A stretch of 64,000 bases of DNA from Bispira polyomma (taxonomy: Eukaryota): contig OZ287749.1 of assembly GCA_965649765.1 (NCBI GenBank), positions 39,556,001 through 39,620,000 of the forward strand, in the 5' to 3' direction. This document shows positions 623-64,000 of this stretch, piece by piece. The notes below the pieces were generated by a model. It was not told where the DNA came from. It searched no databases and saw nothing but the letters and a program-made list of their open reading frames with translations. The first letter of the stretch is position 1; every line of letters starts with the position of its first letter. Both the position numbers and the translations under genes were made by a program.

Positions 623-5798
<5,176 letters not shown>

Positions 5799-7854: not shown

Positions 7855-7895
7855 AATGCGCATGTTCAGTAATGTGCCATGTACTTCCTGTTTTT
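7855..7895. promoter_or_regulatory. Candidate promoter motifs upstream of the LysM gene
   Basis: TGCGCATG (NRF1-like) and ACTTCCTG (ETS-like) about 260-290 bp before the ATG at 8151. Motif match only. Confidence 0.4.
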
Positions 7896-32600: not shown

Positions 32601-35600
32601 TTTGAATAAGTAACGAGTAATGTCAGTGGAGTTATATTCATTTTAATTGATTAATAACCAATATAGCAGGTACATGTATTACCTGAGTAGGTACCATATA
32701 TGGAATGTATGAGAGTACGTAATATATTTATATTAACTGACTGACAACCAACATATCAGGTATTACCGGAGTGGGTGTCATATACCCGCGGAGTGTATGG
32801 CAGGTATATTCATATTAACTGACTGATAACCAACACAGCATCATGATAGCATCATGTTTTACCTGTGTGGGTACCATATATGGAGTGTATTGGAGGTTTG
32901 TTCCTATTAACTGATTTAAAGCCATCATACCATGTATTACCTGAGTGGGAGCCATCCGTAGAAGGTGTGAGAGGTTGGACTGTCATCTCTTTAAAATATT
33001 CTGTACGATTGCTAAACTTTTGGACAAAGTTGAAAATTCTTTCACTGACTGCACCGCTGAGAGCTGACAAGCTCTGTCTACAAGACAAAATGTATGTCAT
33101 ATAATAATATAATACAGGCCAGACTGCTGTGTATAATAATGAAGGATTAACTGAATACAGTAGAATCTCTATTATCCAAACATATGATGAAATATGAGAT
33201 TCAATCTCATTAATTTTGCGTCTTTGTGAGAATAAATTAGCAAGATCCACGCTACAACCATTATTTTGTACACACAGATCACACAATAAATAGAAACTAT
33301 ACCTCTGCAAACGTCATTTTATATAATCTTAACAACAATGAAGGTTGTTTCTACGCATATTTTACTGCCTATTAGAAAACATGGAAAAAAATAAAAAAAC
33401 AATATTTGTTTTAATAATTGCTACCGTGGATTGGATTTCTTACTATTCAGAGATTTCTAGGGGAAACGATATGCAAATTGACGTGGATAAAAGTAGGTTG
33501 CTTTCAACAAAAACAGGCCCGTAGCTGTTTCCGGAAATATAAAAGAAAAGATCTCGATTGTTTGAAGATTCTAGCAATAGAAGGTTCTAGTATTAATTAA
33601 CTAAAAGTGAACCAAGTCTTTTGCGTCTTCATGAAAATAAATTAGGAAGAGGTATCGATCGTGTCACTGCGCATGCTCGGTAGATCACGTGACCTTACTC
33701 CGTACTCTGATTTCATTCACAAAAACAGCCAAAAGTATTTCTCAATGAAACAGCTGATGAGCTCACTTATTTCATTCCAGAAGACGGAAAATTAAATAGA
33801 AGCCTTGAACAAGTGAATGATGTCACAGTCTGAGATTGGCCTACAGACCTGTCTCTTTGTGTGTTAAATGGCTGAAAAATGGCTGTTTCTTTCTCAATTC
33901 TAGCTGAATTACCACAAATTTACAAATGGTGCCTCTTGAAAACAAACCAAACATGTATGCTAAATATGAAAGCCCAGGTCCTTGTAAGGTCGGAGATTAC
34001 GTTGTCCCAAAAATTGTAACCAACAGCAACCAGTTCACTCCACAAATCATAATATCATATTAAGTGGGGTTTCCCCACCTTATTTTAAAATGTTGCCTTT
34101 TAAATGCTCAGAAATATGACTTGGACAAGAGTAATAACTGAGAGAAATCCTACACATACATTGTCTAAAGATTATTCCTGTTGAATACATGTATAGCCTT
34201 CTGGCATCTACTTTGCAGGTGACATCACCATAACAATGTTCATATTATCAAGGTTAAACCTCCACTGTCAAGTTATGGTCAGTCTCTGCACACCTGTAAG
34301 TGCTGTAACCCACACTCATTTCTCTATTACGATAATGTTGATTTTACAGCAGTTACTCTCTATCAAAATACTCAGAATCACCCAGCCTTCTGGACTCAAA
34401 GGGCTAATTAACCTTTTGTTTTGGACAGCACAAGTACAGGAAACCAGCAACAGTAACAGAAACAGAGGCTTAAGGATGACCATTCACAAATATCCCTGAG
34501 CAAAGAACCTAATGACAGAGGTCCTCCATTTTTATACCCTTAGATAGTATCGGAACCAGAGTGGTATGTGATAGTCTGGACACACTATTAGCTGTATGAG
34601 CTTATAGTCTATTTTGTATACACTGAGATAAATTGTTATAATAATAGGAGTATATGAACTATAGACAGGACCGTCCGCCCGTGTCGGACAAGTATTAAGT
34701 CGGGCCACTATCTTTTCGTGGTTGTTGGACCAGTAGACCTGTTACTTTTTACAAATTTTGTAACTTAACTTCCAATTTCATTAAAGGTCAGCATATTGTT
34801 TTAAACTTTGGGTAACTTGGACCACTTGGTTTGTTACCATTTTATAAAATTATTAACCCCGGACAGTCAGGATCAGTACCTTTTTTGTCGGACCAATAAC
34901 TTATTTGAGTTGCAGGACCTGCGGTCCACCAACTATTTACCACAAGTATTATACACTGGGTAGGAGCTGTCCTGAAGCAATAAAGTAAATTATTTCACAA
35001 AGTAGGACCATCCTATGCAAAACTTTTTATCAAACTTAACCTGAAATAGGATGATTTACTTACCCAGAATGTTTGCTCTGATAACTGGCCACACTGGCTT
35101 GACTGGCAAAGGAATCTGTGGAGTCTCTCCTGTCTTTGAGCCTGACTAACTCACTCCAGTAGGACTGGACACTGGTGGCCCCAGGGCTGTGTGGGCGAGG
35201 TGGGTGTAGTCTGGGCATGGTCAGGTAGTCTATGGTGATAGTGGAGGCTCTGTGCGTGTTACTAACGTGTGGTGCTGGGCCATCTGTGTCCACCTCAGGC
35301 AGGGTGTACTCTGAACTGGAACTCATCGCAAGGCTATGTCGTTGGGGTGCTGTGTGTCACCAAAACAAAATTATTAAATTAGAAGGTAACTAGAAAACGG
35401 TTTTTGATAACAAAAACGAAGCGTCCCTAAAGTTGAAATAATAATGAAATTGTTTAGTGTACAAGGTTTGATATTGTTTAAAAGTTGACATATAAGCAGA
35501 ATCAGCACTTTTGGTCAAATATAAGCTCGAAAAGGATAACCATTTCCGAGATAACAGACGTTTTCTAAAAAGACGCAGAAATTGAAGATGTTTGCCCAAA

Positions 35601-38600
35601 TCAAAAATTACTATAAAAATTTACATAAAAGAAAAATCAGCCCTATGAGTCGAAAAGGAGCTTGAAATCGCTCTATCTAGCACCGTTTCTGAAATAAAGG
35701 ACATTTTCGAAAAAGACGCAGAAATTCAAGATGGCCGGCAAAATGTAAATTTTTTTAAAAGTTTAAATATAAGAAAAATCAACCCTGTGGATTGAAAATG
35801 AGCTCGAAATCGGTCTATCTAGCACCGTTTCCAAGATAAATGACATTTTCGAAAAAGACGCAGAAATTTAAGATGGCCAACAAAATTAAAATTTTTAAAA
35901 AAGTATACATATAAGTAAAATCAACCCTGTAGATCGAAAATGAGCTCGAAATCGCTCTATCTAGCACCGTTTCCGAGATAAAGGACATTTTCGTAAAAGT
36001 CCCAGAAATTCAAGATGGCCGCCAAAATTAAAATTTTTTTGAAAGATTACATATAAGTAAAATCAACCCTGTGGATCGAAAATGAGCTCGTAATCGCTCT
36101 ATCTAGCACCGTTTCCGAGATAACGGACATTTTCGAAAAAGACGCAGAAATTCAAGATGGCCGCCAAAATTGAAATTTTTTTAAAAGTTTACATATAAGC
36201 AAAATCCACCCTGTGGGTCGAAAATGAGCTCGAAATCGGTCTATCTAGCACCGTTTCCAAGATAAATGACATTTTCGAAAAAGACGCAGAAATTTAAGAT
36301 GGCCAACAAAATTAAAATTTTTAAAAAAGTATACATATAAGTAAAATCAACCCTGTAGATCGAAAATGAGCTCGAAATCGCTCTATCTAGCACCGTTTCC
36401 GAGATAAAGGACATTTTCGTAAAAGTCCCAGAAATTCAAGATGGCCGCCAAAATTAAAATTTTTTTGAAAGATTACATATAAGTAAAATCAACCCTGTGG
36501 ATCGAAAATGAGCTTGTAATCGCTCTATCTAGCACCGTTTCCGAGATAACGGACATTTTCGAAAAAGACGCAGAAATTCAAGATGGCCGCCAAAATTGAA
36601 ATTTTTTTAAAAGTTTACATATAAGCAAAATCCACCCTGTGGGTCGAGAATGAGCTTGAAATCGCTCTATCTAGCACCGTTTCCGAGATAACTGACATTT
36701 TCAAAAAAGACGCAAAAATTCAAGATGGCCGCCAAAATTGAAATTTTTTTAAAAGTTTACATATAAGCAAAATCAACCCCGTGGGTCAAAAATTAGCTCG
36801 AAATCGCTCCATCTAGCACTGTTTCCGAGATAACGGACGTTTTCGAAAAAGACGCAGAAATTCAAGATGGCCGCCAAAATTGAAATTTTTTTAAAAGTTT
36901 ACGTATAAGCAAAATCAACCCTGTGGGTCGAAAATGAGCTCGAAATCGCTATATCTAGCACCGTTTCAGAGATAATGGCCATTTAAAAAAACCTTAATTT
37001 TTGAAATTTTTGAAATTAAAATCGTTTTATATCAGTAACGATCGCATATTTTTGGATGGGGTAAAAAATAAATAAAAATTCAGGCTATTCTTTAAAAGTT
37101 ACGCGCTGCATGTACTGGTCTAAAATTAAAAATAAAAAAAATCCTCACACGCTCGAAAAAGCACCCATCAACACATTTTTTCCCCATTTTGTATGATTGA
37201 TCGACCTTGTCAATCAGTCAATTATCACCAGATTGATCTAAAAATTTACGGACATATGTGCTTTGGTATTTGCAATGTGCATGCGAAATTTCATTGAACT
37301 ATCACAAGTACTTCAAAAGAAAAGTTGATAAAAGTGCAAGATAGAGCAAAATAGAGCAAAATACGCGGCGGCAATGGCGAGGAAACCAGGGGTGAAACTA
37401 AATAAGCGCCCTTTTCAAGGGACGCTTAATTACTGCTACTTCCTGCATCCAATAATGGCCTCATGTATAATGCTTTAAACAAAGCAGTATGCTGTATTAA
37501 CAATTTCCGATTGCGATGAAATGAAGGAAAATTAAAAAAATATATTTTGGGTGTTGACTGCTTGAAGTAAATTATCCATTATAATTCTTTCGACCCTTAG
37601 ATAGAACTATCGTCAGGAACTGAAAGAAATTTTTCAGTAATAGGTTACAGCCAGATAGCTGGAGTCACTAAAACACACACCACCTATCACTTTCAGCATA
37701 CAATAATGGCCTCATGTTTATAATGTTTTGAACAAAGCATTATGCTGTACTAACAATTTCCAATTGCGAGGAACTGAAGAAAAAAAACAATATAGATATT
37801 TTAGGGTGTTGACTGCTTGAAGTAAATTCTCTAGCTATAATATACTTTCGACCCCAAGATAGAACTGTAACTGGGAATTGAAAGAATTTTTCGTTAATAG
37901 GTTACAGACAGCTGGAGTCACTAAAACATACATCACAGAAATTCTGGCATTCAATAATGGCCTCACATATAAAGTTGTAAACAAAGGAGTATGCTGTACT
38001 AACAAATTCCGATTATGAGGGGGGGTGTTGACTGCATGCGACAGACATAGGTCCTGGGAGAAATAAGTGTCGTAAACTGCTAGCCAACAACTTAGAGGTC
38101 AAAAGGGTTCACATGAAGTGTGTTTCAGGGGTTGTAGGCCCCTATTATGGGTGTTGATGGAAACCTTGGGCTCCGAAAATTAATCTGGCATTACTTTGTC
38201 AATTAGACTTCATATGTACAAATATAACTACTTTTTTAACAAAAAAAACCTCATCATCTTCAACTGTTGTGACACATTGCATCAAAATATGTTGAGAAAT
38301 GGCCGAGATTAATTAAGTTTAAATATAGGTACCCCTCTTTACTACCTGGTTTGTGGACGGGTCATTTGAGATAACCAAGCCCACGTCATTATGACATTGC
38401 TGTGACGAAAGCAACCAAGGGGAAAAAAGGAAATTACAGGTATGACCTACTTTCTGAAGATAGAATTTAATAAAATATTAGATTTTAGAATAACGGTAGT
38501 TCAGTATAAAATTTGGTTGTGTAAAGTGAAGTCCATTATGTGAGGAAATGGTCGTAAAAATTCATGTAAATCCTATGGTTGGAAAGTTACATCAGAATAA

Positions 38601-40200
38601 TAATTTGTGGAGCCCTTAGCTTTTCATCAATATCAAAAACCCTTCAAACACCTTTGCATATTATTATGGTGGAGATATTTATTTTAACGTAAATGGCACT
38701 TTACAATAAAATTACCATAGTGTCAAAGTGTGAAAGAGAATTCATCTTCCCTTCTACCCGTGCTGATCCACTCAAATATTTCATGGATTATTCCTAATAG
38801 CCCATAACCCAACTCTGCACTAAAGTTCAGTCCTCTTTTTTTTGTCTCATCCTGGTGACAAACAATTAAGGTCACCTGTCTGTAGGACCCACATAAAATA
38901 GGAACTTTAAACAGCAGACACTGACCTTTGGAGGGTACTGTACAAGTAGACAACCAAACCAACAAACAAGCAGCAACATAACCTCTTCAGTGGAGGTAAA
39001 TATTAGCGACATCAATGTATTCTATCTCTTTTTTTTTGTTTCTGCATCTATATGTGAAATTGTCGCACAAAAACAGGGTTTTATCTTTTGACCTTACAAG
39101 GTTATTTAACACACGTACGTCAATGAGAAGTTGAGAGAGCAGACACTGACCTCTGGAGGGTACTGTAAGTAGGCTTGTTGTTGAGGGGTCACAGCTTGCT
39201 CTCCGGTGTGAACCTGCTCTACTAGACGCTCCATTTACACCCTCATCTGAAAAAACGACAATGTTCTATTGCTAGCTGGTGTCTATATATGTATATACAG
39301 TAGAACCTCTATTATTCAAACTTTTATTATATCTGAATATTAAATTTTATGGACTCATTTCTACTCCCAAAAATTTATGTACATGTATTTCTTGATACAG
39401 AAATACCTCTTCAGATTTATGAACGGTCTAAGTATCCTGACAGAATGTTGCTCCATAACATATTTGGATGATCGACAGGCTACCATACTGTGGATTAGAA
39501 TCAGCTGAGAGTTGAGACTGACCAACTGGTTGTGACAAGTGGAAGAACTGGGGTGTAAATGAATAAAGACAGATGACACAACATTAAGGGGAACAGCAAC
39601 GCTATAAACTTACGCATTTACATTTCTGTTACTAAGTATAAGTTCAGGTCTGTAGTTATAAAAAAATTACAAAACTTAAATCTCAAAATATGTCCTGCTA
39701 CATATCTTTGTGCATGATCAAAATATCTAAAGTCTAATTGCAGTATTGAAGTTTGTCGCTGAAAGCTCTATTAAGTTACTCACTTGAAAATCTATTGAAA
39801 TAAATGGTAACACGTCTAGATTATTTCCATTAATAAAGAAATCTTTTCATGTGGTACAGTATAACCTGTCTATAACAACCCCTGATAAGACATTTTACAA
39901 AGGTTTGTTATATACAGGCGGTCTTTCTATACAGGATCATCATCTCTGTTGAAATTTTCAAGATATAAAAATGTCTTACAGTGTATGAAACAAAGCCCTT
40001 ATTTGAATACACATAAAATACACCTACAAATAAATGTAGTTGGATTTTTAATTTGGATCCGGATTACCTTCTAGTGTAAATGCTTGGTTATCCTCTCCAG
40101 AATGGCCTCCCTGGATCTGAATAACCGGAGCACTGCCGCCAGATTCCATACTTCGATCTGGTGTCGGGTTGGTATTTTTGGGTGAGGCCATCTCAGTCAT
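17641..40200 (-). CDS. Cyclic nucleotide-gated channel beta subunit (CNGB1/CNGB3/tax-2-like), N-terminus to S5 only (516 codons in window)
   Basis: Phase-consistent exons 40068-40200, 39151-39246, 35064-35349, 32941-33077, 31333-31539, 23273-23382, 22039-22151, 21212-21347, 19624-19674, 19058-19150, 18177-18241, 17641-17763. Motifs: VSERIFNFVQKFSNRTE; TIDPSSMIYALWLMLVTLAYSYNAATIPLRGFF (S1); TPENRYYWWLCDYLADLIYLLDI (S2); MDFASLIPLDLMY (S3); RLPRLLKIQTFWEF (S4); RVMRTLTYMLFLIHIESCGYFIMSAYEGLGFNQWVY (S5). All match beta-type CNG subunits. Confidence 0.92.
18640..18880 (+). mobile_element. L2/CR1-type LINE 3' end fragment
   Basis: LPDELRSIETISGFRKTLKSHLFKLTYPP, an ORF2 C-terminus, plus 3' UTR. 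Confidence 0.75.
20590..20629 (+). ncRNA. Degenerate Penelope-type minimal hammerhead motif (GAAA changed to AAAA)
   Basis: TTTCT-CTGAAGA-AGAG(agtcagg)CTCT-AAAA-GCTC-AGAAA. Confidence 0.5.
20706..20989. repeat. Diverged ~162-bp tandem duplication
   Basis: CATATTAAACACT... at about 20706 and 20868; both copies contain GTTTCTAGCAATATAAAAA and end in CGACATAC. Confidence 0.75.
20990..21163. mobile_element. Tc1/pogo-type MITE, 174 bp
   Basis: TA|CAGTAGACTCTGTATAA ... TTATACAGAGTCTACTG|TA. An inverted sister copy lies at about 58219-58392. Confidence 0.88.
21613..21783. repeat. 40-bp minisatellite, about 4 copies
   Basis: GACAGGGAGGACAGGAATGGGTCATGACCAGAAGGG repeating every 40 bp. Confidence 0.9.
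23019..23259. mobile_element. PIF/Harbinger-type MITE, 241 bp
   Basis: CAG|GGGCTGTATTCACAA ... TTGTGAATACTGCCC|CAG: TIRs with a 3-bp CAG target duplication; inverted TCTTAGTCTTAA/TTAAGACTAAGA subterminal blocks. Confidence 0.85.
23930..25740 (-). mobile_element. 5'-truncated, decayed L1/Tx1-clade LINE (ORF2 C-terminal part plus 3' UTR)
   Basis: FFNFVWSNKKHLISKNVLVQPLELGGLKIVSVEY..AKVMWIKR, zf-RVT-like ICGKVDNLEHYFYYCP, and a C-terminal segment with stops and frameshifts. Boundaries are approximate. Confidence 0.8.
25852..26832 (-). CDS. Tyrosine recombinase of the retrotransposon (326 aa; ORF opens at TTG)
   Basis: SAM-like N-terminus (KQPTIANYLSVLRH) and catalytic residues R (YARLS), K (RTKT), HxxR (HAFRRSGA), HGSW and Y (FTYL) are all present. 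Confidence 0.92.
   Translation of the reverse strand: MASNLLSLACNRIPTALRKRTTQAYKQQFRLFLALAIYLQIPDCTQLSYILIFLEYLHQCGFKQPTIANYLSVLRHYFGFYSLQAAALEHKKVTMVLRAMAINAPFSPKFKGVISIPILQNIVKRCDKLPHGYVFKALFLVAFFGYARLSTLVPSSRKDISDRSLLRKDFIDTSLGMDIVFPRTKTHQAYYQSHPISIPSIPSSSLCPVQAVKNMFRLIPSSPNSVAFVIPNKKSFTPLLASKVRQTLARIITLLGYEPAHFTFHAFRRSGATLSFNNNVAFEDIRVHGSWKSDAIFTYLQNLSAAPKVAISFQKLPSLRALHGHT
26847..28670 (-). CDS. Reverse transcriptase-RNase H of the retrotransposon (607 aa)
   Basis: RRIIVNLS, KLDVSRAFR, FGYRHG, YIDD; DIRS-type RNase H motifs VDAS, HLEM, CDN and NDKADCLSR. Confidence 0.95.
   Translation of the reverse strand: MVGNSIIDNTCMEEHVLGDMVSDQGAEALNTLQGFGFVRHTIPLYVLKDKSSTLEELSLEQWVTEAYNIVASTSVPNYKGARLQVNTELNLKLWFDLLKNYHDPILFEYLRFGFPLCVDYNTFQYTTVCDNHPSAIQFPQDVEVYFKKELEHNSIAGPFEIPPIAPLHVSPLLSRPKTGDTRRIIVNLSHPFGDSVNSNVLTDEYDGYKFTLTYPSVDNIVDEIAKLGSSALLYKLDVSRAFRNLRIDPRDYSVMGLHWAGKYFIDVSVAFGYRHGCAQMQRIGDFLLHIMASSGYTVFPYIDDVIGIQNQQQANSAFHMLKALIENLGLPLNLKKMATPQHEVTCMGILINTKTGTLRIPDDKLLKIVIICREWQNKQFISKRALQSLLGKGLYIHRCVHPARLFVNRMLGFLRGSHSQCRITLDDQFRKDIAWFNKFLINFNGVVMIHRQNNPDFVVYVDASLSGIGAIYNDNVYAATYPQNFHLVYTIVHLEMINIYVMLKVWGSHFTHKLVRVRCDNEAVVHVLNNGRTRDPHLLLYARSIWCLAASHDIQLQYSHIAGVQNDKADCLSRWFSPNVNKDVVNELIKCQWYQVRADFYIPNYDI
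29180..30300 (-). pseudogene. Disrupted gag-like ORF of the retrotransposon
   Basis: ORFs 30103-30300 and 29308-30090 are in the same frame, split by a single TGA at 30103-30105. A frameshift near 29335 cuts off the C-terminal zinc fingers (PCRFF / RCTHDNDH...HACAYCFK...HAEPNC...SKN). N-terminal CxxC..H..P.G..C motif present. Confidence 0.8.
30753..30997. repeat. ~121-bp tandem duplication
   Basis: CTTGGGTTAGAAAGTTGAACTTTACTCTGAACTAT...CAGACAGTC present twice. Confidence 0.9.
33300..34080. mobile_element. Non-autonomous DNA transposon-like interspersed repeat
   Basis: Colinear reverse complement of 54930-55800 (e.g. AAGCCTTGAACAAGTGAATGATGTCA). A short piece also lies at 48600-48700. Confidence 0.7.
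35388..37430 (-). mobile_element. Helentron-derived non-autonomous element (HINE-like) containing a tandem array
   Basis: Subterminal inverted repeats AAGCGTCCCT (35419) and AGGGACGCTT (37418). 5' hairpin AAGCGTCCCTT-GAA-AAGGGCGCTT and 3' hairpin followed by CTAGTT on the minus strand. Confidence 0.82.
35500..36990. repeat. 142-bp tandem array, about 11 copies, with a duplicated 426-bp trimer
   Basis: CTAGCAC anchor at 35677, 35819, 35961, 36103, 36245, 36387, 36529, 36671, 36813 and 36955. Confidence 0.95.
37445..38030. repeat. ~250-bp diverged tandem repeat, about 2.3 copies
   Basis: CAATAATGGCCTCA at about 37450, 37701 and 37952. Confidence 0.8.
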
Positions 40201-41247
40201 GGACTATAAGTTGTATTAACACCACTGAAAATATTTATGAGCATAAAAATAACTACAGAAGAATATTGTACTGTATTTGTGGATTTTTAACATGCCTTAC
40301 TGATGTTAGGCATCTCCAAAAGAATTCAGAATCGATAAACCATTAATCCATGATTCTTAAATACTTGGTTGTCATTATTAGGGTGTAATCACCTTTTTCC
40401 CTAGGATATTATCCCTCAATGATCATTGTGGTGTTACCAGAAGTCAAACCGGGGACCTTCTGATCACCAGACCAACTCCCCAGTGATGGAGTCCAATTTA
40501 TAGTTATTAATAATGGTATTTAGTATTGAAACAGACGTTTACCTGAAAAATGTTTTGCTATAATTTTTAACACAGTTTGGTTAAATATACACATATATGG
40601 ATTTTATTTACTGAAATATTCTTTAAAAATGTTTATCTTATTTCTGAATTTTCCACATAATCGCATGTTTATGATAACAGTTAGCAGTCCCATGGCTTAA
40701 ACACTTAAATATGTATTCATGAACATGTACCTAATCATTAATAAAGATTAAACACTATAATTTTGATCTTTGGTATTTCTCAGAATTTTCTTCTCAAAAT
40801 TAAGAAAAAATAATATGGAACACAGTCCCATACATACAATCAATTGAACTCTTGGAAAACATTCTATCTTGCCAATCTAGTCTATCAGTCTTGGATAAAG
40901 AGTATATCTATAGTTTCCTAAATAAAGGTTTTTATAGGGTCTACAATATCAATCTGTGATGCAAACTTAATGACAAGTAGTATTTCTTTTAACCCTTACA
41001 CTATTTCTGTGCATATTTCACAGCACAATTATTCACAAATGCACTTGTGGGACCCCCAAATTTATTATCTATTTTGTGGCAGAATGTAGTTTACCAAACT
41101 CTTTGACTATGGATTATTTAGATATCAAGAGCTGAACACCTCAGACTGATTATCAGTAAATGGCATTACCTATTTGTATAACTGATGTGCGACATTTTCA
41201 GTGACAACTGAAGCTGTCACCAATGGGTTTCTTTTAATCAACACCAA

Positions 41248-41408
41248 CAGTAGAACCTCTATTATCCTAACTTCTGTTATCCAAGTATTTAAGTCTCATT
41301 TTCATTTTCCAAATGTTTTTCCCCCTAAAAATGCCTTTTATCTAATTCTTCTACTGTCCAAACAAAATATTGCTCTTCCAACATGGTCGGATAATAGACA
41401 TTCTACTG
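41248..41408. mobile_element. Tc1/pogo-type MITE (CAGTAGAACCTCTATTATCC family)
   Basis: CAGTAGAACCTCTATTATCC ... GGATAATAGACATTCTACTG|TA. Related ends near 15055, 33158, 39298, 48300, 60020 and 63370-63549. Confidence 0.75.
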
Positions 41409-41919
41409 TACTTCTTCATCCTCAGCAATATTCTGGGGCCTTGGTGTAGTGGTAACAGTGAAGAAAACCTTGACCAACTACCCTGTTTTGATTTCTTTCA
41501 CCAGTGAACTAAACTGCCTGCAGTGATAGGACACAAACATGCATGTCAAAAGCGATGTAAATGAGTCCCAAATAATTAAATAAAAATAATCAGAAATATT
41601 CACTGAAACAATTGTTAAGAAAATGTATGAGTGAAAACACATAATTACACAAGAATCCTTATGCATATATAAGTACCAAAATAAAACATTACCTTTCATC
41701 AACTTAAAGTCAGGCAATCACATAAGTGTATTTAGGATGATCTCACACACTTTTAATCCCATAGATAAATGTAATATACAGACAACATACGATGGTACCA
41801 CAATACCTAGGGTATAAGTGTCTCCCAAAATGGCTGTAAAAACACACACAGGTAAACTGTTGCCACAAATGTTATACCCTCCCCTTTCATAACTACTGTC
41901 AACTGTCCTTCATTAGTTG

Positions 41920-41933
41920 GTTTCCATGACAAC
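41920..41933. promoter_or_regulatory. RFX X-box-like motif
   Basis: GTTTCCATGACAAC between the CNGB and CNBD1 start codons. Confidence 0.5.
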
Positions 41934-42299
41934 TGGTAACTGGTGTATTTTTTCATGCTGCTTGGACAAGGAATCAATACTGCTCAGTGAGATTTGTAGC
42001 CTCCTGTAGGCTCAAACTGAACTGTTCAAAGTATTGTGAATATTAAATTAGTGGAAATATTATGTTCTTCAATAACATATACTTCATACACTTACTTCAA
42101 TGCTAAACTGGATATATGTATTGATGCCATTTAAAAAATATTTTATAACATTTCATTCACACATAGTACCACATATAAACATGTATATTCTTTCACACTC
42201 AATATAGATTTAAAGAAATAAATAAACCACTTGGTCAGTTAATATTATTATTAAGCAAAATACAACAGCCACCCTACCTTGCCTCCCTTCTTTCCTTCA

Positions 42300-42640
42300 G
42301 TAACCGCAAGAGAGGCAACAGACTCTGTCACTTCGGTCAGACCAATCAGAAAGGCGGGTTTCAGAGCGTTCTCCACTGCAGCTCCACGGTTATGGAACAG
42401 TCTCCCAGTTGACCTCAGATCAGTTGACACACTTATCGGTTTTAGGAAAAAGCTTAAAACCTATCTTTTTAATCTTGCCCACCTACCTTAGCTTTCCTCG
42501 TGCACGCTCCCACTTCCTTCCTTATGACTTTGCAATTTCCATGGACTTAATGATTTGACTAATGATTCTGCTGTTGCGCTTTAGAAGATGCCTAGCATCA
42601 ATAAAGCGCGGTTAAAATCTATAATAATAATAATAATTAC
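42300..42640 (+). mobile_element. L2/CR1-type LINE 3' end
   Basis: KAGFRAFSTAAPRLWNSLPVDLRSVDTLIGFRKKLKTYLF, 3' UTR and (TAA)n tail. Confidence 0.85.
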
Positions 42641-43825
42641 ATGTACTTGCAGTGTTGTGAATATTTAATCATTAGATTTTTTACATTTATAAAAGCCTTG
42701 TTTATGTACATACAGATTTGTTTTTGTAATCTTATTTTAGAATGTGGGACTTAGTAAGGCTATGGTTTGTCACCTTACAGAATAGAGCAGATGAGAATGA
42801 TCCCACCTGTACACAACTGGCTTGCTTCACTAATCACAGCTCATTGTCTCTACACAGGAAAATCAAACACAAGTTTCCATCTACAGGGCGATCAGTTTAT
42901 ATTAAAAAGTGCAGTGATTAATTTGCAGGGAAATTTGTGTACGTGTCGGGTTATTGAGTAAAGAACTGATAATTAAACGTTATTATAAGGCTGATAAATA
43001 CACACACCAATTTTATTGATCCAGTGTGTACATAAACATTAAAACCTTAAAGATAGAAATATTAAAAAGTCTACATTATAAATTTTTCCTACATCCCTAT
43101 TCACAATATTATTATTTTTACAATATTCACGATATTTACAGCTTCAATCCGAGCTGGAGATATATATTTGCAGAAGTGGTTAGTATATGTAAACATTGTG
43201 GGAAGTGTTCAGAAATTCTGCTAGCCAGATTACCAGAAGGATTAAATCTTAATTTCTAAGCCAATAAATTATCTGTTTGGGTAATATACTTGGTTTAAAA
43301 TTTAATTTGGTCTAATTGCATGAGGGCATTATGAATTTTTCACTGAATCCCTCACTCAACAATGTAGTTTTACTTCAGAATAAAGCAAATCTCAGTTATA
43401 AAAAACATTAATGCCGACACTTTTGGAACAGAATTGGAATCTCTTAAAATGCAGTGATACTGTGTTTCACCAAGAGTAAAGACTTGGAAGCAAGTTTATA
43501 GTCTACTACCGAAAATGCTGCAGCAACTAGACATTTGCAGGCGTGCGAGTTATATTGTCTGTATTGGTAATGTATGGGATAGATGCACCACTCAGTGTGC
43601 ACAGGGTTTATAATTACCATTTGTGTTATTAAAAAAAAAAAAGAATAAATAAACGATAACTTATATTGCTATATATGAGTTGTATAACAGTTAACGTTAT
43701 TCGTGGCCATTTATAGTGCCTCCTAGCGACTTAAGTATTTTGCAGCCTACGTCAAAACATTGAAATGGACAAATGCAGACTTAAATTGATTGATTTTTTT
43801 AAGTGTAATTGTAGACTTTATTCTA

Positions 43826-44352
43826 CACGGGTGGTAAGAATTCTGGCTGGTACGAATTCTGGACAATAAATACAATTATATGGAAATACCAGGAAATACA
43901 CAGAAACTACCATGTCAAACTAACGTTTATTCTGCACTACTAAATGTCTACTTACTGAAAAAAGTAGCAAAATATATAATAAATCATAATTTAAATGTAT
44001 AGATAGAGATACAAGTTGGTCCTATATATTGCATTTGCATGTAGGTGTTTTAAGTACATCTACTTATATCTTGTGGTGGCAAAGCAGTGACCTGATAAAA
44101 TACGGTTTATTTCAGATTTAATAAGAAAGTTATGGAAAAAATAAATAATAATAGGAAATAAGTTGAGAAAGCATATAGAAATGCTATTTCTGCACAACTG
44201 AATCCCTAGGTGGCACTTACACTTCCTATTAGTCGCAAAACTAATAGTGTTTCATGTATACCTATTTCAGTCCATTTGACTTTTTATTATATCTTATGCG
44301 ACATACTTTAAGTAAAAACATCAAATTCTGTCCAGAATTCGTACCACCCGTG
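43826..44352. mobile_element. Tc1/mariner-type MITE
   Basis: TA|CACGGGTGGTA(C/A)GAATTCTGG ... CCAGAATTCGTACCACCCGTG|TA. Confidence 0.82.
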
Positions 44353-44729
44353 TAGTAATTCTAGTAATTTTGTCTTAAGCATTATATCAGGGCAGTATGA
44401 CTTTATGTACAGACACTAGTGGTTTTCCACAGAGAAGACTTGCCTAATTCACATAGTTGAGTCATAATGACATCAGGCATGGTGGATAAGGATAAAATAC
44501 AAAGACTTGTAAGCCAGTCTATGTTGTTGTACACTGATGCTGAAAGGTAAGATAGTGGACAGGCCATACTAAATTAATACCTTATTCAGGGTCAAAGAAT
44601 ACCTTAAGAAAATATGATTAATGTTTGCAAAAACACCGTTGTGTTGTATAGACTTTGTTATTTTACTGTAAAACATATTTCGCCCTGTCAAAAACTCCAA
44701 AAGAGTCCACATTCATTTTCTCCCGTTAA

Positions 44730-44830
44730 CCACTGTGACATCTAGCGGTAGAAATGAAAGCAAACGCAAAATTCTCGTCTCGTGAGGTTTCGTCATCGGC
44801 GAAATTGCGCATGACGGAAGTAAACCCAGT
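44730..44830. promoter_or_regulatory. Candidate promoter of the CNBD1-like gene
   Basis: CpG-richer patch with TGCGCATG, CGGAAGT, CGTCA and a CTCF-like CCGCTAGATGTCAC (minus strand), within 200 bp of the ATG at 44916. Confidence 0.5.
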
Positions 44831-44915
44831 GTTGTTAATGTAAATAATGTAACTGGATGTAGTTAGCAAACTGAGTTAAAATCAATTATTGGACATTTTA
44901 TATCATTGTATAAAG

Positions 44916-47900
44916 ATGTCTTTAGTTAAATTTGAAGAAAAGCGAGAAGTATCAACTTGGAAAACGCGCGACAAGAAAGCGACACGCCACAAAAGTAAGT
45001 TTACTTGGTTTAGTAATCGGATTGAAATGGGCAACTCCATTCTCTCTTCAATTAGGATGTGACTGGGGGTCTCATTTCAGGTTCCTTTTTAGAAGTGGTT
45101 ACCGCGGCGATCGTCAGTTAGCTGTCTTATCGCCGTGGCACGAGCCCACATAGAACTGGAGATTTTTTAAAACAGAAAACCAAAAATGAATAACTTAAAA
45201 ACACTTGTAAAAATTTTTTTTTTTTTTTTAAAGTTTTTAGAAATCTCCAGTTTTATGTGGGCTCGTGCCACGGCGACAAGACAGCTAACTGACGATTGCC
45301 GCGGTTATGTATATGACCACGTCTAGTTCCTTTGTACAAAGGATTTTGAACAACTTTGCAATATTAAAAATGTTTTTTTAATAAAGTCACTTTTTAATGT
45401 TAGAATAATCATTACTTATACTATCGTCAAACTTCCTGTTATCGATCACTTACTATTATCGATCAGCAACAAAATAACCATTTTATACTAGGTCATGTGA
45501 ACACAATTTAGCGTTGATCATTTGGCATTTCGAAATAAAAACAATCTCCAATGATCTCCAACAAAAATTAAGAAATTAGGAGATAAAAAAAGGTATTAAA
45601 TTGTTAAAATACCTTTTATATATTATTCCGCTTACGTGATCGATAAGTGGAGGCGCGAGGATATATTGAGTATAGAAGCTATACATGTGCCACAGGCATA
45701 CCTATGAGATGGAAGCACTCACTCTTTGTGAAAATATGAAGTTGACTGACTAAAGCAACATGATTAATACATAATATGATATGTTGATGTGACATATAAT
45801 ACAATTTTTTAAAACTAAAAAATGCTTATACATTTGTAAATATTAAGTCTAACTTCAGAAAATAATGACAGAATAATATAGTTTCCGGAGCCTATACATG
45901 TTTTCTATGTAGGGAACTAGACCTATCTGCATGGAACGTACCTGTGTCCTTGCCCGAATTTATAAATGTTGACAGATGGTAACCATACTTTATAAAAAAA
46001 TAATTTACGTCATGGTTTATAAATGTACAAGATATGACACAAAAACTAAAAAAAAAAAAAAATACACTAATAAATAGTTAGTTGGAAACAAATTTATACT
46101 GAGCACTTTCTTGAAATGACACAATATTGGTCTATTTTACATTATCTAATAGATAGTAAGCTTCTCTCATTCACATGGAGCATAAATTTCATGTCAAATC
46201 GTATACATCAAAAAAACATTCCCTGAATTTTCTTAAATATTTCCTTGATATGACGGCCATTTGACATGAAATTGATGCATACTGTTTAGCGAACCATATT
46301 GCGTCACCCCGTAACAAAAACAGATTTAATATGAAATGTGTTACTTATACTATAGAAATCCACAATTTATTTCCAAGATAACTACGTTTTATGTTCAAAA
46401 TTACAAATCTGTCGATGTATTAACTTTTAACTGGTATTATAACCCAACCTGTAATATGAATGTCTCTGTAGTAGTATTAAAAAAGTCATTAATCAGTCAA
46501 ATAATGGGTGTACTACATATATGTGCATTTTTTAAAACATTAAAGGATAATGAAAAACATTGTATGCACAACTTAAGGAAACAGTTGTTTGCAAATTACG
46601 TTTCCTTTATAAGAACCATAATTACCTTACATTTTTGTACTGTTTTGTACATATACTTTGCAGTTCCTGGTGAAGTACAGAAACCTGTAATAGATTATGA
46701 CAAACTGAAACAGCTGATATCAATTGATGGTCTGAAAGGAAGGTAAGCCATTGAAATACGAAAACTTTAAATGGTATTTATTTTTTAACATTTTGTTCTG
46801 TATGGCATTTGTGGGTAGAGGCACTATTTAGTATATACAACATATTACAAACAACTCTCAGTATAGCTCACACTTTAGAAAAAACCAAACCTAAGTATTT
46901 TTAGAAATACCGTAAAATTTAAACCACATTCCCAATCTCTACTTTTTCTTAAATCTGAGTTAACTCTTTTGACTGCTATATTGTCAGGTAGAAACTAATG
47001 GCATTTGTTACTTACTGAACCTATGTTGGTAAGCAGTAAATACCTTAAACATATTATTTCAGACTCTTTTAGTTCCGTACTATAAATTGTTAGAACAGCG
47101 GAATTCCTCATTTAAACAGTTCTACGAGAGGCGGTTATTAATTGCCAAAAGTAGTTGGTGGTGTGTTTTAGTATAAGCTATTACCTGAACATTTCATTCA
47201 ATTCCTGGTAATAGTTTTCTCTTGGGGTCGAAAAGGTAAAGAGCCCATTGGCTCTACAGAGAGAGAGAGAGATAGAGTAATTAACAGTATGTCTAAACAC
47301 TTTTATGCACTTGTCAAGCTGCCATTCTGGGTCAGGCAGATCAAATGTATCTAGAATACTGAGTCTCTGATTGTTTATTAAGAACTGTGTCATCTTTTTA
47401 TATATTATTTTTGTATAAAAACAAACTTTTTGCTTCAGGAAAGATGCAACTTCAACAGAAGATGCTCATAAATCATTTATGGCAAATTATAAAAGCATTT
47501 TTGTTGAGGATGCACCAAAAAAGGGACTCCCTTATCACTGTCTCACAAGAAGGTAAAGGAATCTCCAAATTGATACTACACGGCCCATAATTCTGAACGG
47601 TTTCTAGTATTTTGTTCTGTAATATATCATATTTTGCCCAGAATTTATTAGTAGGTCTACTGTGAAAATAAGTCAAAATATTTGTACATTATGGTAAGAA
47701 AAATGCTTTTGATTAATAAGAAAAAAATTGTTCGTTATAATTATCGACCTACTGTTCAGAATTGTAGACGGCAGTGTATTACATTAATTTTTGAGGCACC
47801 TGTAATGTGCTGATACCATACCATCATCATTTAAAATCAGTATTTCTTAAATGATGTAGTATTCCTTTCTAAGCTATTTTTGTACAGAATCTTCTGAACT

Positions 47901-50900
47901 CTGTTAAAAGTTACAAAGTTTGTTATGACAGTATATTTTTGAGCTCTTTTTTTAAATCTCTTAAAGCTGTGATAGATATGAGCACTGTTTATTAGTTCTT
48001 TTTTCGAGTAAGTGATGTGAAAAAAAAGGTTGTTATTGCCCCTGTTTCATCAGTTATTGTTACAAATAAAACCAAAGCAATTATGTACTATTTTTTAGAT
48101 CTCTACTATCCAGGTTTTTATTGTCCAAACCAATTTTTTTAACTTATTGCAATTTCACAATTTTATGTTTCTCTATATCACAAGAGAAAATCTATGATAT
48201 TTTACTGTCTAAACAATTCTGTCTCTTTCAAAGTATTTGGATAAATGAACCTCTTATATTATCCAAACCAAAAATTCTGGCTTTCTAAAAGTGTATGGAT
48301 AATAGAGACTTCACTGTGTTATGAGATACTCTTGTAACTTTATATGTTAATATTTAGGTTAATTGACTCAATTGCACTCACTTCATTTGTGTTTTCAGTG
48401 CGACTGTTGTATTCTCCATGTTTGAGTGTACATGTTTTACTTTCATTTTGTAGCCTACAGAAGATGTCAGAAAGTAGTATCACAGATCATAGTACATCAC
48501 AATCTCCAGGTAGTTCAGTTTAATTTATTAGGAAAGTTAATTCATATAATTTAAAAAAAAGTTAATTATTAAGAAACTGTGCCATTATTTAAGTAGGTAG
48601 GGGAATCCTCTACCTAATATGATATCATGATTTGCGGAATGAACTGGTTGCCGTTGGTTACAATTTGGAACAACGTGATCTCAGAACTTACAAGGACCTT
48701 ATTAAGAAATGTAAATTTTATTTTTTTGATGTTTTTGTAGTTTACATATAAAATAATGACAGAAATCATTCTCTTCTGTATACATATGTATTTTAAAATT
48801 ATGTTTTAAATGTTATACTCTTGATAAATATTATATAAGCAGAATATATATGAAATATGTTTTGTATAGTGTAATCAAATGTGTTATTCATTGTCTTAGT
48901 TGGATATTTCATATTTAAACTCTGTTTATAAGTGATCATATAAACTCCAAAAATGTTTGTAGAAAACACATCACAAACTCTATTTTTTTTGTCCTTATTG
49001 TTTTTAATGTAGACCTTGTTTGATTATAGATTCAATCACACTTATTTAAGTTAGTTGTATTTACAAAATAATACGTGAATCATGGTATAAGTCTAGTGTT
49101 TAGGACCATTTTAAAGGATTTTTTTACCATGCAGTCCTTGAATGCTGAGAAAGTTGGTGGATGGGGCTTTATCTCTGGAACCACATATTTAAGGGGGTTC
49201 CACATCCAAGTTCGATCGGCAAAATGGGCCCGATTTTAAAGTCAGGAAGGTCGGGGCGAAAAAATCAATAAAATCCATTTTTGGGCGGGAAAATTCATGT
49301 GTGGGGCGGCCTTCCCGATCGAACGGGACGCTGACCTCGATCTTACTTGAACCAGGATAGGATCGAACTTACTAGTGATAGGATCTGACGTATCGCCCTA
49401 GGATCGAACGTATCGCCAATAGGATCTCACGGATTTAGATCCCCGACCATAAAGATCGAACGTAGAAAAGTCAAAGTCGGGACTGTTATTGTATATAAAT
49501 ATAGATGACAAATGAGGTGTATTTAATGAAATAAAAGAAATAATACATGTTTAGACCTCATTTTTGATGGAAGTTTGTTGTAAATAACAGCAAATAAATT
49601 CATCGTTTGCGTACATGAACTGTACCACAAGTGGGTTCGATGTCGCAAAGGTAAGGTAAACTTTTAAACTGATTTCCGTTATCGAGACTGACAAAATAGG
49701 CTTTTATACGTGTTTTCACACATATAATTCTTCCCGACCTTCCAGACCACCCTGTTTTCGCCCCCTGACCTATACGTTTCGACGGGCCAGCGTTAGGACA
49801 GGCCGGCAGTGCGGTCCGACTTATCCGACTAAGTGTCGCCAATAGGATCGAACGTATTAACGGTCCCGACTTGAGGTCCTGGACCAAAAGTCGGGACCAT
49901 TTTTAAAATATCTAACTTTTTTGATATTCTTCCCGACCTTCCCGACCACCCCGTTTTTGCTCCCCGACCTCAAAGTCGGGAAGGTCGGGGAGCAAATCCT
50001 GAATGTGGAACCCCCACTTAAACAAGAATAGCTTATAAAAAAAGGTAGATAGAAGGGAGGTGAAAGCCAGTTTATGTAAGTTTATTATACACTAACACCT
50101 TTGCGGGTCAATTCCAGTCCTGAGTGTCATTCTGGGCTTCAGTAGTAACCATTACGCATTCCGATTTGACCTACTTTTTAATTAGGACAGCTATGATGCG
50201 TTACCAAACAGGAGAATCCTAGGACTTCAAAAAAGGTGTCAGCTTTTTCAACATAAAACATTGTATTTCAATCTCAATTGATTCTTTCAGTTTTCTTATG
50301 AAATACACTTCTATCAGTTCACCTATATAAGAAAAATATATTACCCATAAATATGAGGCAAATATAACATTAACCACAATAAGCAAGAAATTTGTTTTCA
50401 TGAATATTATAAACAAATCTACACCCCTCTAAATGGTTTATCTTAGACCCGTCCCGTCATACAACAGGGAGGTCCCCAGCTAACACTCACATTAGAAGTC
50501 TTAATTAACTAAAATAATGTTCATTTTGGGGATGTAGTAAATGTGTAACCAGTATATATTGTGTCCCCCCAGTCGTAGGAAACAGTTCTTTAGACCTACA
50601 GCAGCCAGTAGAAAAAGTAAAGGAGGAGACGGATGAAGTGAGTCATGATATCAGGGATCACATGGGAAAACTACATAGACAGAGAAAGAGTGAGGATCCC
50701 AAGTCACAGAGGGCTGAGAGAATAAAGACACTTAGGAGGCTGCTCAAGAAATTGTAAGTATTGTATGCGAGAGAGAGAGAGAAAGAGAGAGAGTGCATTA
50801 ATAGTGAAATGATAGGAGTAAAACCTTGATGTTGTAATATAATTTTGTTGAGCCACTATTTATTTCATGTATTCTGACATATATCACAATACTAAAATTG

Positions 50901-62900: not shown

Positions 62901-63338
62901 GTTCAAAAAGATAGGCCTTCAGCTTACTCCTGAAAGAGGAGAAAGTTTGAGCCAGGCAAACATGATCAGGTAGGCTGTTCCAAATGAGGGGGCCATCATG
63001 AGCTAGGCAGTGATTGAACTGAACTTTGGATTTGTGGATGTGAGGGTCGAAGGTGGGAATGTTAAGGTATAATTTATCAGGGTTACTGCGCCTAGTCCTG
63101 ACTGAGCATGTATATTTGGATAGATGGGGGCTAAAATAAGTGGGTAATCCAGAATTTAGAAATTTATATATTATTGTTATATCCAGGGTTATCACATGTA
63201 TAATGTGTTTTTGTATGATATTTACTAGTGTTGGTGTCAGAAGGTTACAAGTCTCCTTTTGCTGCAATCATCAAACAAGGGGAATGCCATGTCTTGAGAC
63301 AAGTGGAAGTGATCAAGAATCTGCCTGGTGGTGTCAGA
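44916..63338 (+). CDS. CNBD1: Cyclic nucleotide-binding domain-containing protein 1-like (partial; continues right of the window)
   Basis: Phase-consistent exons 44916-44994, 46664-46742, 47439-47552, 48454-48509, 50573-50753, 51951-52099, 52352-52482, 59090-59230, 61058-61190, 63229-63338. Motifs IDYDKLKQLISIDG, AHKSFMANYKSIF, LLKKFPFERS, FILRGKV, GDCFGTF, WASFPANTVLVSEG..IIKQGEC resemble CNBD1 with tandem CNB-like domains. Confidence 0.85.
45101..45305. repeat. Fold-back inverted repeat (about 75-bp arms), probable MITE
   Basis: ACCGCGGCGATCGTCAGTTAGCTGTCTTATCGCCGTGGCACGAGCCCACATAGAACTGGAGATTT versus its near-perfect reverse complement ending at 45305. Confidence 0.88.
49193..50017. mobile_element. 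Non-autonomous TIR element, Kolobok-like
   Basis: TTAA|GGGGGTTCCACAT ... ATGTGGAACCCCCAC|TTAA, with internal GGATCGAAC and CCCGACC repeats. Relatives at 53400-53583 and 56960-57605. Confidence 0.75.
54930..55800. mobile_element. Second, inverted copy of the 33300-34080 repeat
   Basis: Reverse-complement colinearity with 33300-34080. Confidence 0.7.
56200..56660 (+). mobile_element. L2/CR1-type LINE 3' end
   Basis: FHWLTIEHRILFKY, GRRSFAVAA, WNRL..VRSQQTLSGFRSQLKTRLFRLAYPPP, and a (TAT)n tail. Confidence 0.8.
56960..57605. mobile_element. Diverged copy of the 49193-50017 TIR element
   Basis: GTGGTTCCAC ... GTGGAACCAC ends and a shared GATCGAACGTATCGCCAATAGGATCT block. Confidence 0.7.
59315..59830 (-). 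mobile_element. L2/CR1-type LINE 3' fragment
   Basis: Decayed ORF2 end and the same 3' UTR blocks as 5360-5540. Confidence 0.65.
60604..60649 (-). ncRNA. Minimal type I hammerhead ribozyme motif, Penelope-like
   Basis: Minus strand AGGTTATT-CTGAGGA-a-AGAG(taagg)CTCT-GAAA-GCTC-AATAAACCT: core boxes, stem I, stem II and palindromic AGCT stem III. Confidence 0.7.
61283..61500 (+). mobile_element. tRNA-derived SINE
   Basis: TGGTCTAGTTAG (A-box-like), GGGTTTGATCCC (B-box-like) and core ...GCTAAAGAACCTTGG. Confidence 0.6.
62640..62731 (-). mobile_element. Penelope-like RT fragment
   Basis: Minus strand reads DVISLYTSIPNNEGIRA, the Penelope-type DVxSLYTxIP motif. Confidence 0.65.
62732..63170 (-). 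mobile_element. L2/CR1-type LINE 3' end
   Basis: HDGPLIWNSLPDHV..TFSSFRSKLKAYLFEQAFPP, 3' UTR and (TAGAT)n tail. Confidence 0.85.
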
Positions 63339-64000
63339 GTAAGTTCTCTTTGCACTGACTACAGATATACAGTAGAATCTCTATATTATTCAAACTTTCA
63401 GTTTTTAAATATTTCATCCGTGAAAGTACTTTCACTCCCCCGAATGTACATTTTTAATACTAATATGCCTCTTCTGGTTTATGATCCTTTTATTAGCCAA
63501 ACCTGATGTTGTTCTCCCAACATGTTCAGGTAATAGAGGTTCTACTTTACTAAGTTCTGCTTCACTGAAATGCTGATACTGTCACTCGTTAAAATAGAAC
63601 CTATTAAGAAAATAATTATACACAGGATTCAGACAGGTTGAGGGCATCATGTGAAAAGCTGGTAATAAAGTGGACCTTGTTATGCCAAACCACATGATTT
63701 TTTTTTTGCACAACATTTACATATTTTGTCTGAATGAAGATTAGGACCTTTTGAGAGTTTGATCAGAATAGACAAATACACAGCATTTTATCAAATACAT
63801 GTACGATGTATACAAACTTTTAGCAAAAAATTTAAAAACATTTACATTGTAGATGGCATATTTAAAAATGTATTATGTACACTGAAATATATAGTGTGCA
63901 GAGACTCCATTATATACAGAGAAGTGAGATTAATTAGGTGTTTTGTATACTCCAATGCATAACAAGAGTTTGGTTTTCATTGGGTCAAAGCTTGTTCAAA

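What the first reader, a model, noticed from the sequence alone, without database searches (positions are those of the whole stretch)
40068..44994. Head-to-head CNGB / CNBD1 pair mirrors human CNGB3 / CNBD1
Seen: two cyclic-nucleotide-related genes diverge with start codons 4.7 kb apart. From memory, human CNGB3 (minus) and CNBD1 (plus) are divergent neighbours on 8q21.3. Inference: an ancient bilaterian microsyntenic pair, hinting that the poorly characterised CNBD1 is co-regulated or functionally linked with CNG channels in cilia, sperm or photoreceptors.
Basis: partly seen in the sequence, partly recalled or inferred. Interest (0 to 1): 0.7.

Follow-up and report, generated by a model that had tools for sequence, protein, structure and literature searches.

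The report
Ancient channel gene pair, recently copied
A cyclic-nucleotide-gated channel gene and the little-studied CNBD1 gene sit head to head in this worm-like animal as their relatives sit side by side in mammals, likely a 600-million-year-old neighbour pair that many animals have lost, and this particular copy is a recent duplicate whose channel gene is cut short.

Summary
Both genes are real: a CNGB channel gene (minus strand) and a 13-exon, 505-aa CNBD1-family gene (plus strand), with start codons 4,716 bp apart. The host groups with annelids. Accession order puts the pair adjacent or close in Owenia, two Patella, Lottia and two Haliotis (6 of 33 species with both records), but far apart or unlinked in several others; mammals and turtle keep it. 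An ancestral bilaterian pair is likely, but patchily kept. The mirror is of the pre-duplication CNGB, not of CNGB3 specifically. Co-regulation is unproven: the human gap is at least 110 kb, human CNBD1 is testis-specific, and dogs lacking it show no extra retinal defect. Read depth supports a real duplication. This copy's CNGB stops before the pore; only the other copy is complete. No RNA run was available.

The parts
40068..40200 (-). CNGB first coding exon (ATG at 40200, second ATG at 40191)
   Evidence: In-frame stop upstream, GT donor at the end; identical in the C4 copy; resembles the Owenia CNGB N-terminus by eye
31334..39246 (-). CNGB N-terminal exons 2-5 (39246-39151, about 35356-35064, 33077-32942, about 31537-31334; boundaries of exons 3 and 5 approximate)
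   Evidence: tblastn of Owenia, Patella and Lineus CNGB on the C4 copy hits exons 3-5; all four frames open in both copies
17641..23382 (-). CNGB transmembrane exons S1-S5 (23382-23273, 21347-21212, 19150-19058, 18241-18177, 17763-17641); one short exon between 21212 and 19150 was not located; last CNGB exon present in this copy
   Evidence: PDB hits to CNGB1/CNGB3; tblastn; open frames
17178..64000 (.). Left part of a 110-kb segment (continues to window coordinate 127698, beyond the window) that is an inverted copy of G000:C4:52019474-51907340, 1.5% diverged
   Evidence: megablast; 1,542 mismatches in 105,166 aligned bases; depth
16984..17177 (.). Left half of the high-copy repeat into which the segment is inserted; the right half resumes at window coordinate 127700
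   Evidence: Genome searches, loose contig ends at 17175, joined flanks align through the junction in 3 of 4 intact copies with 3 extra bases
25855..30102 (-). Tyrosine-recombinase retrotransposon (RT, RNase H, recombinase) inside a CNGB intron, present in both copies
   Evidence: Pfam RVT_1 and Phage_int_SAM_1; lies within the 22963-36399 block shared with C4
41920..41933 (.). X-box (RFX-type) consensus match on both strands, between the two start codons
   Evidence: at least one site in 108 of 2,000 shuffles of the intergenic DNA, a both-strand site in 29 of 2,000; 7 sites in 264 kb. The consensus is recalled. Weak hint only
44501..45750 (.). CpG-rich stretch around the CNBD1 start, likely its promoter
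   Evidence: CpG observed/expected 1.12-1.35 against 0.08-0.23 at 40.5-42.2 kb
44916..44994 (+). CNBD1 first coding exon
   Evidence: the model aligns to annelid homologues from residue 1
46664..63338 (+). CNBD1 exons 2-10 (46664-46742, 47439-47552, 48454-48509, 50579-50753, 51951-52099, 52352-52482, 59090-59230, 61058-61190, 63229-63338); exons 11-13 lie beyond the window at 64878-66497
   Evidence: tblastn with three full-length homologues; spliced frame open, 505 aa

Best explanation
The window shows a CNGB channel gene and a CNBD1 gene head to head inside a recent 110-kb duplicate of a locus on another chromosome, and the pair was likely inherited as neighbours from the common ancestor of annelids, molluscs and vertebrates and then lost in many lineages. 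Shown: both gene models, the duplication, the clean insertion into a repeat and the truncation of this CNGB copy before the pore. Inferred: (a) ancestral adjacency, from accession order in other species; (b) a weak constraint, because the pair is broken repeatedly and is over 100 kb apart in mammals, so any shared control would be a loose ciliated-cell (RFX-type) element in compact invertebrate loci and not an obligatory bidirectional promoter; (c) CNBD1 is a soluble protein with two cyclic-nucleotide-binding folds, of which the first is EPAC-like and could bind cAMP weakly while the second lacks the phosphate-binding arginine, most likely acting in sperm or motile cilia independently of the channel; (d) the duplicate arose by break repair that copied C4 DNA into a C2 repeat, giving a second intact CNBD1 and a CNGB fragment that cannot form a pore.
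For: Orthology: names; Atlas top cluster chordate CNBD1, scores 0.97 and 0.96; next cluster 0.95; 41-row tree follows the species tree; the window protein groups with Capitella, Paralvinella and Lamellibrachia, SH-aLRT 95. Adjacency: Patella caerulea tags SNE40_007152 (CNGB residues 1-142) and 007153; Owenia CAH1780519/CAH1780517; Haliotis asinina XP_067651523/530; P. vulgata XP_050395780-782/802-803; same small scaffold in Lottia (3.6 Mb) and H. rubra (1.08 Mb). Vertebrates: dog, human, turtle. Breakage: Tegillarca 117, Solemya 441 and Pomacea 947 locus tags apart; different chromosome-scale scaffolds in Lineus and Babylonia; amphioxus has NipSnap upstream on the same strand. Duplication; single-copy contig depths 72-92, 12-18 and 17-24 in three runs against 107-215, 19-25 and 32-47 inside the segment. 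CNBD1 fold and residues.
Against: Gene order in other species is read from accession numbers and scaffold lengths, not coordinates; orientation there is unknown except that the CNGB 5' end lies next to CNBD1 in P. caerulea. RefSeq number distance is unreliable (H. rufescens numbers are far apart although two congeners look adjacent), so 12 of 33 species are undecided and 9 of 33 are draft scaffolds. No vertebrate CNBD1 or CNBD2 sequence was retrieved, so orthology to human CNBD1 has no tree test, and the Atlas margin over the next cluster is small. No CNGB record from amphioxus, echinoderms or cnidarians was obtained. The three runs are from one study, may be the assembly's own source data, and contig depth is not a copy number; no listed contig bridges the C2 junction.
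Confidence: 0.7

Rival explanations
1. The pair is kept because it shares a bidirectional ciliary promoter, and CNBD1 is a working partner of CNG channels in ciliated sensory cells or sperm.
For: Divergent orientation and short spacing here; both-strand X-box between the starts; CpG depletion at 40.5-42.2 kb would fit a CNGB transcript starting near the CpG-rich CNBD1 start (inference); CNBD1 marks a ciliopathy-enriched cell state in primate testis (PMC10691849 passage); head-to-head pairs are enriched among conserved pairs (PMC3514665 passages).
Against: Pair broken in at least 5 of 33 species on clear evidence; human gap at least 110 kb; human CNBD1 listed as testis-specific (PMC7436996 passage) while CNGB3 is the cone subunit (PMC9803222); dogs lacking CNBD1 exons 1-4 plus CNGB3 show a very similar disease to a CNGB3 missense mutant (PMC3639114 passage); the X-box is a 1.5-5% event by shuffling. 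The goat paper's claim that CNBD1 regulates CNGB3 rests on a STRING network and cites the EPAC2 domain of the same name (PMC9498695 passages).
Confidence: 0.13
2. Adjacency arose twice by chance: both genes stayed on one ancestral chromosome and became neighbours independently in vertebrates and in spiralians.
For: The two genes share a chromosome in most chromosome-scale records, so chance adjacency is possible; a published survey dates the block holding CNGB3 and CNBD1 to vertebrates (PMC8851819 supplement, stored cut); another lists SMARCB1, not CNBD1, as an ancient CNGB neighbour (PMC7530604 supplement; SMARCB1 is on C8 here).
Against: My rough estimate (inference, no call): chance adjacency of two given genes on a chromosome of a few thousand genes is about 1 in 1,000, lower again with matching orientation, against about 600 truly ancestral pairs reported.
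Confidence: 0.1
3. The copy in this window is an assembly artefact: an uncollapsed second haplotype of the C4 locus placed on C2.
For: 1.5% divergence with indels resembles allelic difference; repeats flank both ends; the long contigs at the left junction follow the C4 path.
Against: The C4 ends do not carry the flanking repeat, the two C2 flanks join into one continuous repeat copy, no N gap lies at either junction, unique stretches on C2 and C4 show near-equal depth and almost no variant letters, and the shared segment is deeper.
Confidence: 0.07

Closest known systems
Mammalian CNGB3-CNBD1 locus (human 8q21, dog CFA29)
   Same: CNGB-family gene next to CNBD1 with the CNBD1 5' end facing it (dog deletion removes CNGB3 and CNBD1 exons 1-4); same block in turtle.
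   Different: Spacing 4.7 kb here against at least 110 kb in human; the invertebrate CNGB predates the CNGB1/CNGB3 split; the flanking genes differ (here an SLC7A6OS-like gene, named from memory, and TANGO6; in dog CPNE3 and MMP16).
Conserved ancestral microsyntenic pairs (CAMPs; Irimia et al. 2012, PMC3514665)
   Same: Unrelated genes, head to head, short spacing, shared by distant phyla.
   Different: Shown or indicated in three lineages (vertebrates, annelids, gastropods), not the four that the definition asks for; co-expression untested; the paper's list could not be read.
EPAC2 and PKA/PKG regulatory domains
   Same: Tandem cyclic-nucleotide-binding folds (Foldseek E 3e-15; Z about 17); the first domain is closest by sequence to EPAC2 (E 1.6e-18).
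   Different: No GEF, kinase or transmembrane part; first domain has Thr/Ser/Cys for the pocket Glu (41 of 41) and Arg or Lys at the phosphate site (35 of 41); second domain keeps Glu (41 of 41) but never Arg (0 of 41).
Interchromosomal insertional (segmental) duplication by break repair
   Same: Large copied segment at an unrelated site, no homology between donor ends and target, few filler bases, truncated edge gene.
   Different: Nothing unusual found beyond its size and its precise target inside a repeat.

Membership tests
CNGB subfamily | Closer to CNGB1/CNGB3 than to CNGA | tested here: met
   PDB; pore exon of the C4 copy 77-91% identical to 71 proteins, the named full-length ones mostly CNGB
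CNGB subfamily | Complete S1-S6, pore, C-linker and nucleotide-binding domain (window copy) | tested here: not met
   Copy ends after the S5 exon at 17641; junction at 17178; no nucleotide-binding exon on that strand nearby
CNGB subfamily | Complete S1-S6, pore, C-linker and nucleotide-binding domain (C4 source copy) | tested here: met
   tblastn finds the exons in order to C4:52032095
CNGB3 orthologue in the strict sense | One-to-one orthology with CNGB3 and not CNGB1 | tested here: not met
   Exons hit CNGB3 and CNGB1 alike; the two arose in the vertebrate genome duplications (PMC9803222 passages)
CNBD1 | Full-length similarity to proteins annotated CNBD1, with the same architecture | tested here: met
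   49-55% identity over about 505 aa to the 30 best hits; names
CNBD1 | Groups with vertebrate CNBD1 and not CNBD2 in a gene tree | tested here: inconclusive
   No vertebrate rows retrieved; tree of 41 invertebrate rows only; Atlas features favour the chordate CNBD1 cluster narrowly, 0.97 against 0.95 (run with Owenia and amphioxus homologues)
CAMP (Irimia 2012) | Linked in four or more lineages with at most four intervening genes | tested here: inconclusive
   Vertebrates, annelids and gastropods indicated; amphioxus, echinoderms and cnidarians could not be tested (no CNGB record)
CAMP (Irimia 2012) | Genes are not paralogous tandem copies | tested here: met
   They share only a cyclic-nucleotide-binding domain; CNBD1's nearest solved relatives are EPAC, PKG and PKA
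Bidirectional promoter pair | Transcription starts within about 1 kb | not testable with these tools
   No RNA run listed; start codons are 4.7 kb apart and the CNGB first coding exon has a splice acceptor upstream, so its start site is unknown
Bidirectional promoter pair | Co-expression of the two genes | not testable with these tools
   Only indirect mammalian passages
Canonical cyclic-nucleotide receptor | Both Glu and Arg of the phosphate-binding cassette in one domain | tested here: not met
   Domain A lacks Glu in 41 of 41 rows, domain B lacks Arg in 41 of 41; EPAC2 also lacks the Glu, so binding by domain A is not excluded

The most novel reading that the evidence does not exclude
CNBD1 is an unrecognised, 600-million-year-old regulatory partner of CNG channels in cilia and sperm flagella, co-transcribed with CNGB from a shared RFX-driven promoter in invertebrates, with an EPAC-like first domain sensing cAMP and a degenerate second domain serving as a docking site; the truncated S1-S5 CNGB duplicate could in addition act as a natural inhibitor of the channel.
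Probability: 0.1. Interest if true: 0.72.

Novelty: new member of a known kind. Interest (0 to 1): 0.33.

Why it matters
It moves the CNGB-CNBD1 neighbourhood, so far catalogued as a vertebrate block in the part of one survey that I could read, back to the bilaterian ancestor, and it gives an almost unstudied testis gene a testable context: a slow-evolving, single-copy family from cnidarians to chordates with one plausible and one degenerate nucleotide pocket. Conserved head-to-head pairs number in the hundreds, so the pair alone is ordinary. It would matter more if co-expression or binding to CNG channels were shown. The duplication is a caution: this window is not the native locus, and its channel gene is incomplete.

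Tried and rejected
First homologue search with the S5 exon returned a single fragment. No RNA holder was listed, so start sites, untranslated exons and splicing are unverified; candidate untranslated exons near 40541, 41694 and 44412-44550 were seen by eye and left undecided. The first fold (shallow alignment, pLDDT 43) was discarded; the second is of the Capitella homologue, not of the window protein (pLDDT 84). A sperm-axoneme fold hit (9fqr_Xk) is explained by the PKA regulatory subunit in that entry, not CNBD1. The careful tree did not finish; the quick tree is reported. NipSnap was not found in G000 with the amphioxus query, which shows nothing. SMARCB1 is not linked to CNGB here. Cnbd1 and Cngb3 were not found in the held supplements of PMC4498915, PMC6292497 or, for CNBD and four invertebrate genus names plus Branchiostoma, PMC9803222; the supplement of PMC3514665 could not be read and that of PMC8851819 is stored cut, so either may already list the pair. 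No complex prediction was run, because neighbourhood alone does not justify one. Four look-ups of earlier scan notes showed nothing on this pair.
Full report
Observation. The window is G000:C2:39556001-39620000 of a 1.04-Gb animal genome. Two genes diverge across 40.2-44.9 kb. On the minus strand, ten coding exons from 40200 down to 17641 encode the N-terminus and S1-S5 of a CNG channel beta subunit: two of them hit CNGB1 and CNGB3 in PDB much better than any CNGA, full-length invertebrate CNGBs map to eight of the ten on the near-identical C4 copy, and all ten frames are open. On the plus strand, 13 exons from 44916 to 66497 splice into a 505-aa protein without a stop. The start codons are 4,716 bp apart.

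Identity of the plus gene. A profile search returned 73 proteins at E 1e-10 or better among 7,997 scored candidates, from cnidarians to amphioxus, the named ones mostly CNBD1 or CNBD1-like; none was vertebrate. The window protein is 54-55% identical to Owenia, Capitella and Paralvinella and groups with three annelids in a 41-row quick tree that follows the species tree (named species only, unnamed Logan/JGI rows and some partial models left out), so the host is likely an annelid. For Owenia and amphioxus homologues the nearest Atlas cluster is the 435-aa chordate CNBD1 (0.97 and 0.96, next cluster 0.95). Orthology to human CNBD1 is therefore likely but has no tree test. A confident model of the Capitella homologue (pLDDT 84) shows two cyclic-nucleotide-binding folds like PKA/PKG regulatory regions, followed by a long helix; by sequence the first domain is closest to EPAC2. 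Domain A keeps Arg or Lys at the phosphate site in 35 of 41 rows but lacks the Glu in all; domain B keeps the Glu in 41 of 41 and has no Arg in any. Inference: a soluble, at most weakly cAMP-binding protein, not a channel subunit.

The window is not the native locus. The S5 exon has a second, identical copy on C4, as has a CNBD1 exon. Window 17178 to 127698 is an inverted copy of C4:52019474-51907340, with 1,542 mismatches in 105,166 aligned bases. The C4 copy continues into pore, S6, C-linker and nucleotide-binding exons; the window copy stops after S5. CNBD1 is intact in both (10 of 1,518 bases and 4 residues differ). Both C2 flanks are halves of one high-copy repeat: loose contig ends at 17175 continue with the letters found at 127700, and the joined flanks align through the junction in 3 of 4 intact copies with three extra bases. 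The C4 ends lack this repeat and no gap lies at the junctions. In three runs of one study, long single-copy contigs have depths 72-92, 12-18 and 17-24 on both C2 and C4 with almost no variant letters, against 107-215, 19-25 and 32-47 inside the segment. Contig depth is not a copy number, the runs may be the assembly's source, and no listed contig bridges the C2 junction; still, a real insertional duplication fits better than a misplaced haplotype.

Gene order elsewhere. No tool gives eukaryotic gene order, so I used accession order and scaffold length for the 33 species with both records. Four look adjacent or nearly so: Patella caerulea (consecutive tags, the one beside CNBD1 being CNGB residues 1-142), Owenia (two accessions apart), Haliotis asinina (seven) and P. 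vulgata (twenty). Two share a small scaffold (Lottia 3.6 Mb, H. rubra 1.08 Mb). Four share a chromosome but are far apart by submitter tags (Tegillarca 117, Solemya 441, Pomacea 947, and Pinctada, whose tags may not be positional). Twelve share a chromosome with uninformative RefSeq numbers. Eleven lie on different scaffolds, nine of them drafts and two chromosome-scale (Lineus, Babylonia). In amphioxus an old model fuses NipSnap to the front of CNBD1, so NipSnap is upstream on the same strand; whether CNGB lies between is unknown. In vertebrates, a 404,820-bp dog deletion removes most of CPNE3, all of CNGB3 and CNBD1 exons 1-4 (PMC3639114, passages); human CNGB3 begins at 87,566,205 (PMC9803222 supplement) and CNBD1 at 87,878,670, with an unassigned SNP at 87,768,331, so the gap is at least 110 kb (PMC10179231, table passages); turtle has both in one block classed as vertebrate-novel (PMC8851819 supplement, stored cut). 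CNGB1 and CNGB3 arose in the vertebrate genome duplications and that paper's main text never mentions CNBD (PMC9803222, passages), so the mirror is of the ancestral CNGB.

How it likely works. Presence in vertebrates, two annelids and basal gastropods is best read as inheritance from the bilaterian ancestor; repeated breakage and the wide mammalian gap say the constraint is weak. Hints of shared control are thin: a both-strand X-box at 41920 (1.5-5% by shuffling) and a CpG-rich stretch at the CNBD1 start with CpG depletion towards CNGB. Against a photoreceptor link, human CNBD1 is listed as testis-specific (PMC7436996, passage) and its loss adds no evident phenotype in achromatopsic dogs. A goat study states that CNBD1 regulates CNGB3, but from a STRING network and a citation about the EPAC2 domain of the same name (PMC9498695, passages). 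CNBD1 most likely acts in sperm or motile cilia (one search is a weak pointer) independently of the channel.

What is in print. Seven paper searches showed no paper describing the pair outside vertebrates; most subscription journals are not searched, the CAMP list of PMC3514665 (passages read) could not be opened, and PMC7530604's supplement lists SMARCB1 as the ancient CNGB neighbour. PMC4498915 and PMC6292497 were searched in supplements only.

Verdict. Real genes, real head-to-head arrangement, probably ancient but patchy: a new member of a known kind. The functional link is a hypothesis at about 10-13%. The copy seen here is a recent duplicate with a truncated channel. Interest 0.33.

Noticed in passing
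G000 C8:1303001-1317000 and copies on C2, C10, C11, C13: A segment of at least 13 kb carrying HCN-like nucleotide-binding-domain exons and two long retrotransposon-like frames occurs in at least 8 places with near-equal scores; 3 of 3 copies compared with the C8 copy are 98.7-99.9% identical. It looks like a recently mobile large segment. The HCN label is recalled.
   Followed up: partly
window 25855-30102: Tyrosine-recombinase (DIRS/Ngaro-type) retrotransposon in a CNGB intron, older than the duplication because both copies hold it.
   Followed up: partly
window 1345-11768: RIOK2 (minus, Pfam RIO1 and Rio2_N) head to head with a LYSMD3-like gene (plus, named from memory; no Pfam hit); glutaredoxin, ZW10 and a kinesin lie further left. 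From memory RIOK2, LYSMD3, GLRX and HOMER1 are all on human 5q14-15, so this may be another old neighbourhood, interrupted by the insertion.
   Followed up: no
window 17165-17120, minus strand: The repeat just beyond the junction offers a strong splice acceptor; splicing the S5 exon to it would end the truncated CNGB after about 14 further residues (read, untested).
   Followed up: no
window 44412-44548: An exon-like stretch on the plus strand with its own ATG and a donor in the phase needed to join CNBD1 exon 3; it could be an alternative first coding exon, or on the minus strand an untranslated CNGB exon (by eye).
   Followed up: no
window 52100: GC donor in CNBD1 intron 6.
   Followed up: yes
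L021 (G000:C1:27361982-27365013): Two tandem CNGA-type channel frames of 462 and 349 codons without introns.
   Followed up: no
L016 and L059: The duplicated segment also carries an SLC7A6OS-like gene (named from memory, no Pfam hit), and TANGO6 (Pfam RTP1_C1) follows CNGB on C4; from memory both are on human 16q22 near CNGB1.
   Followed up: partly
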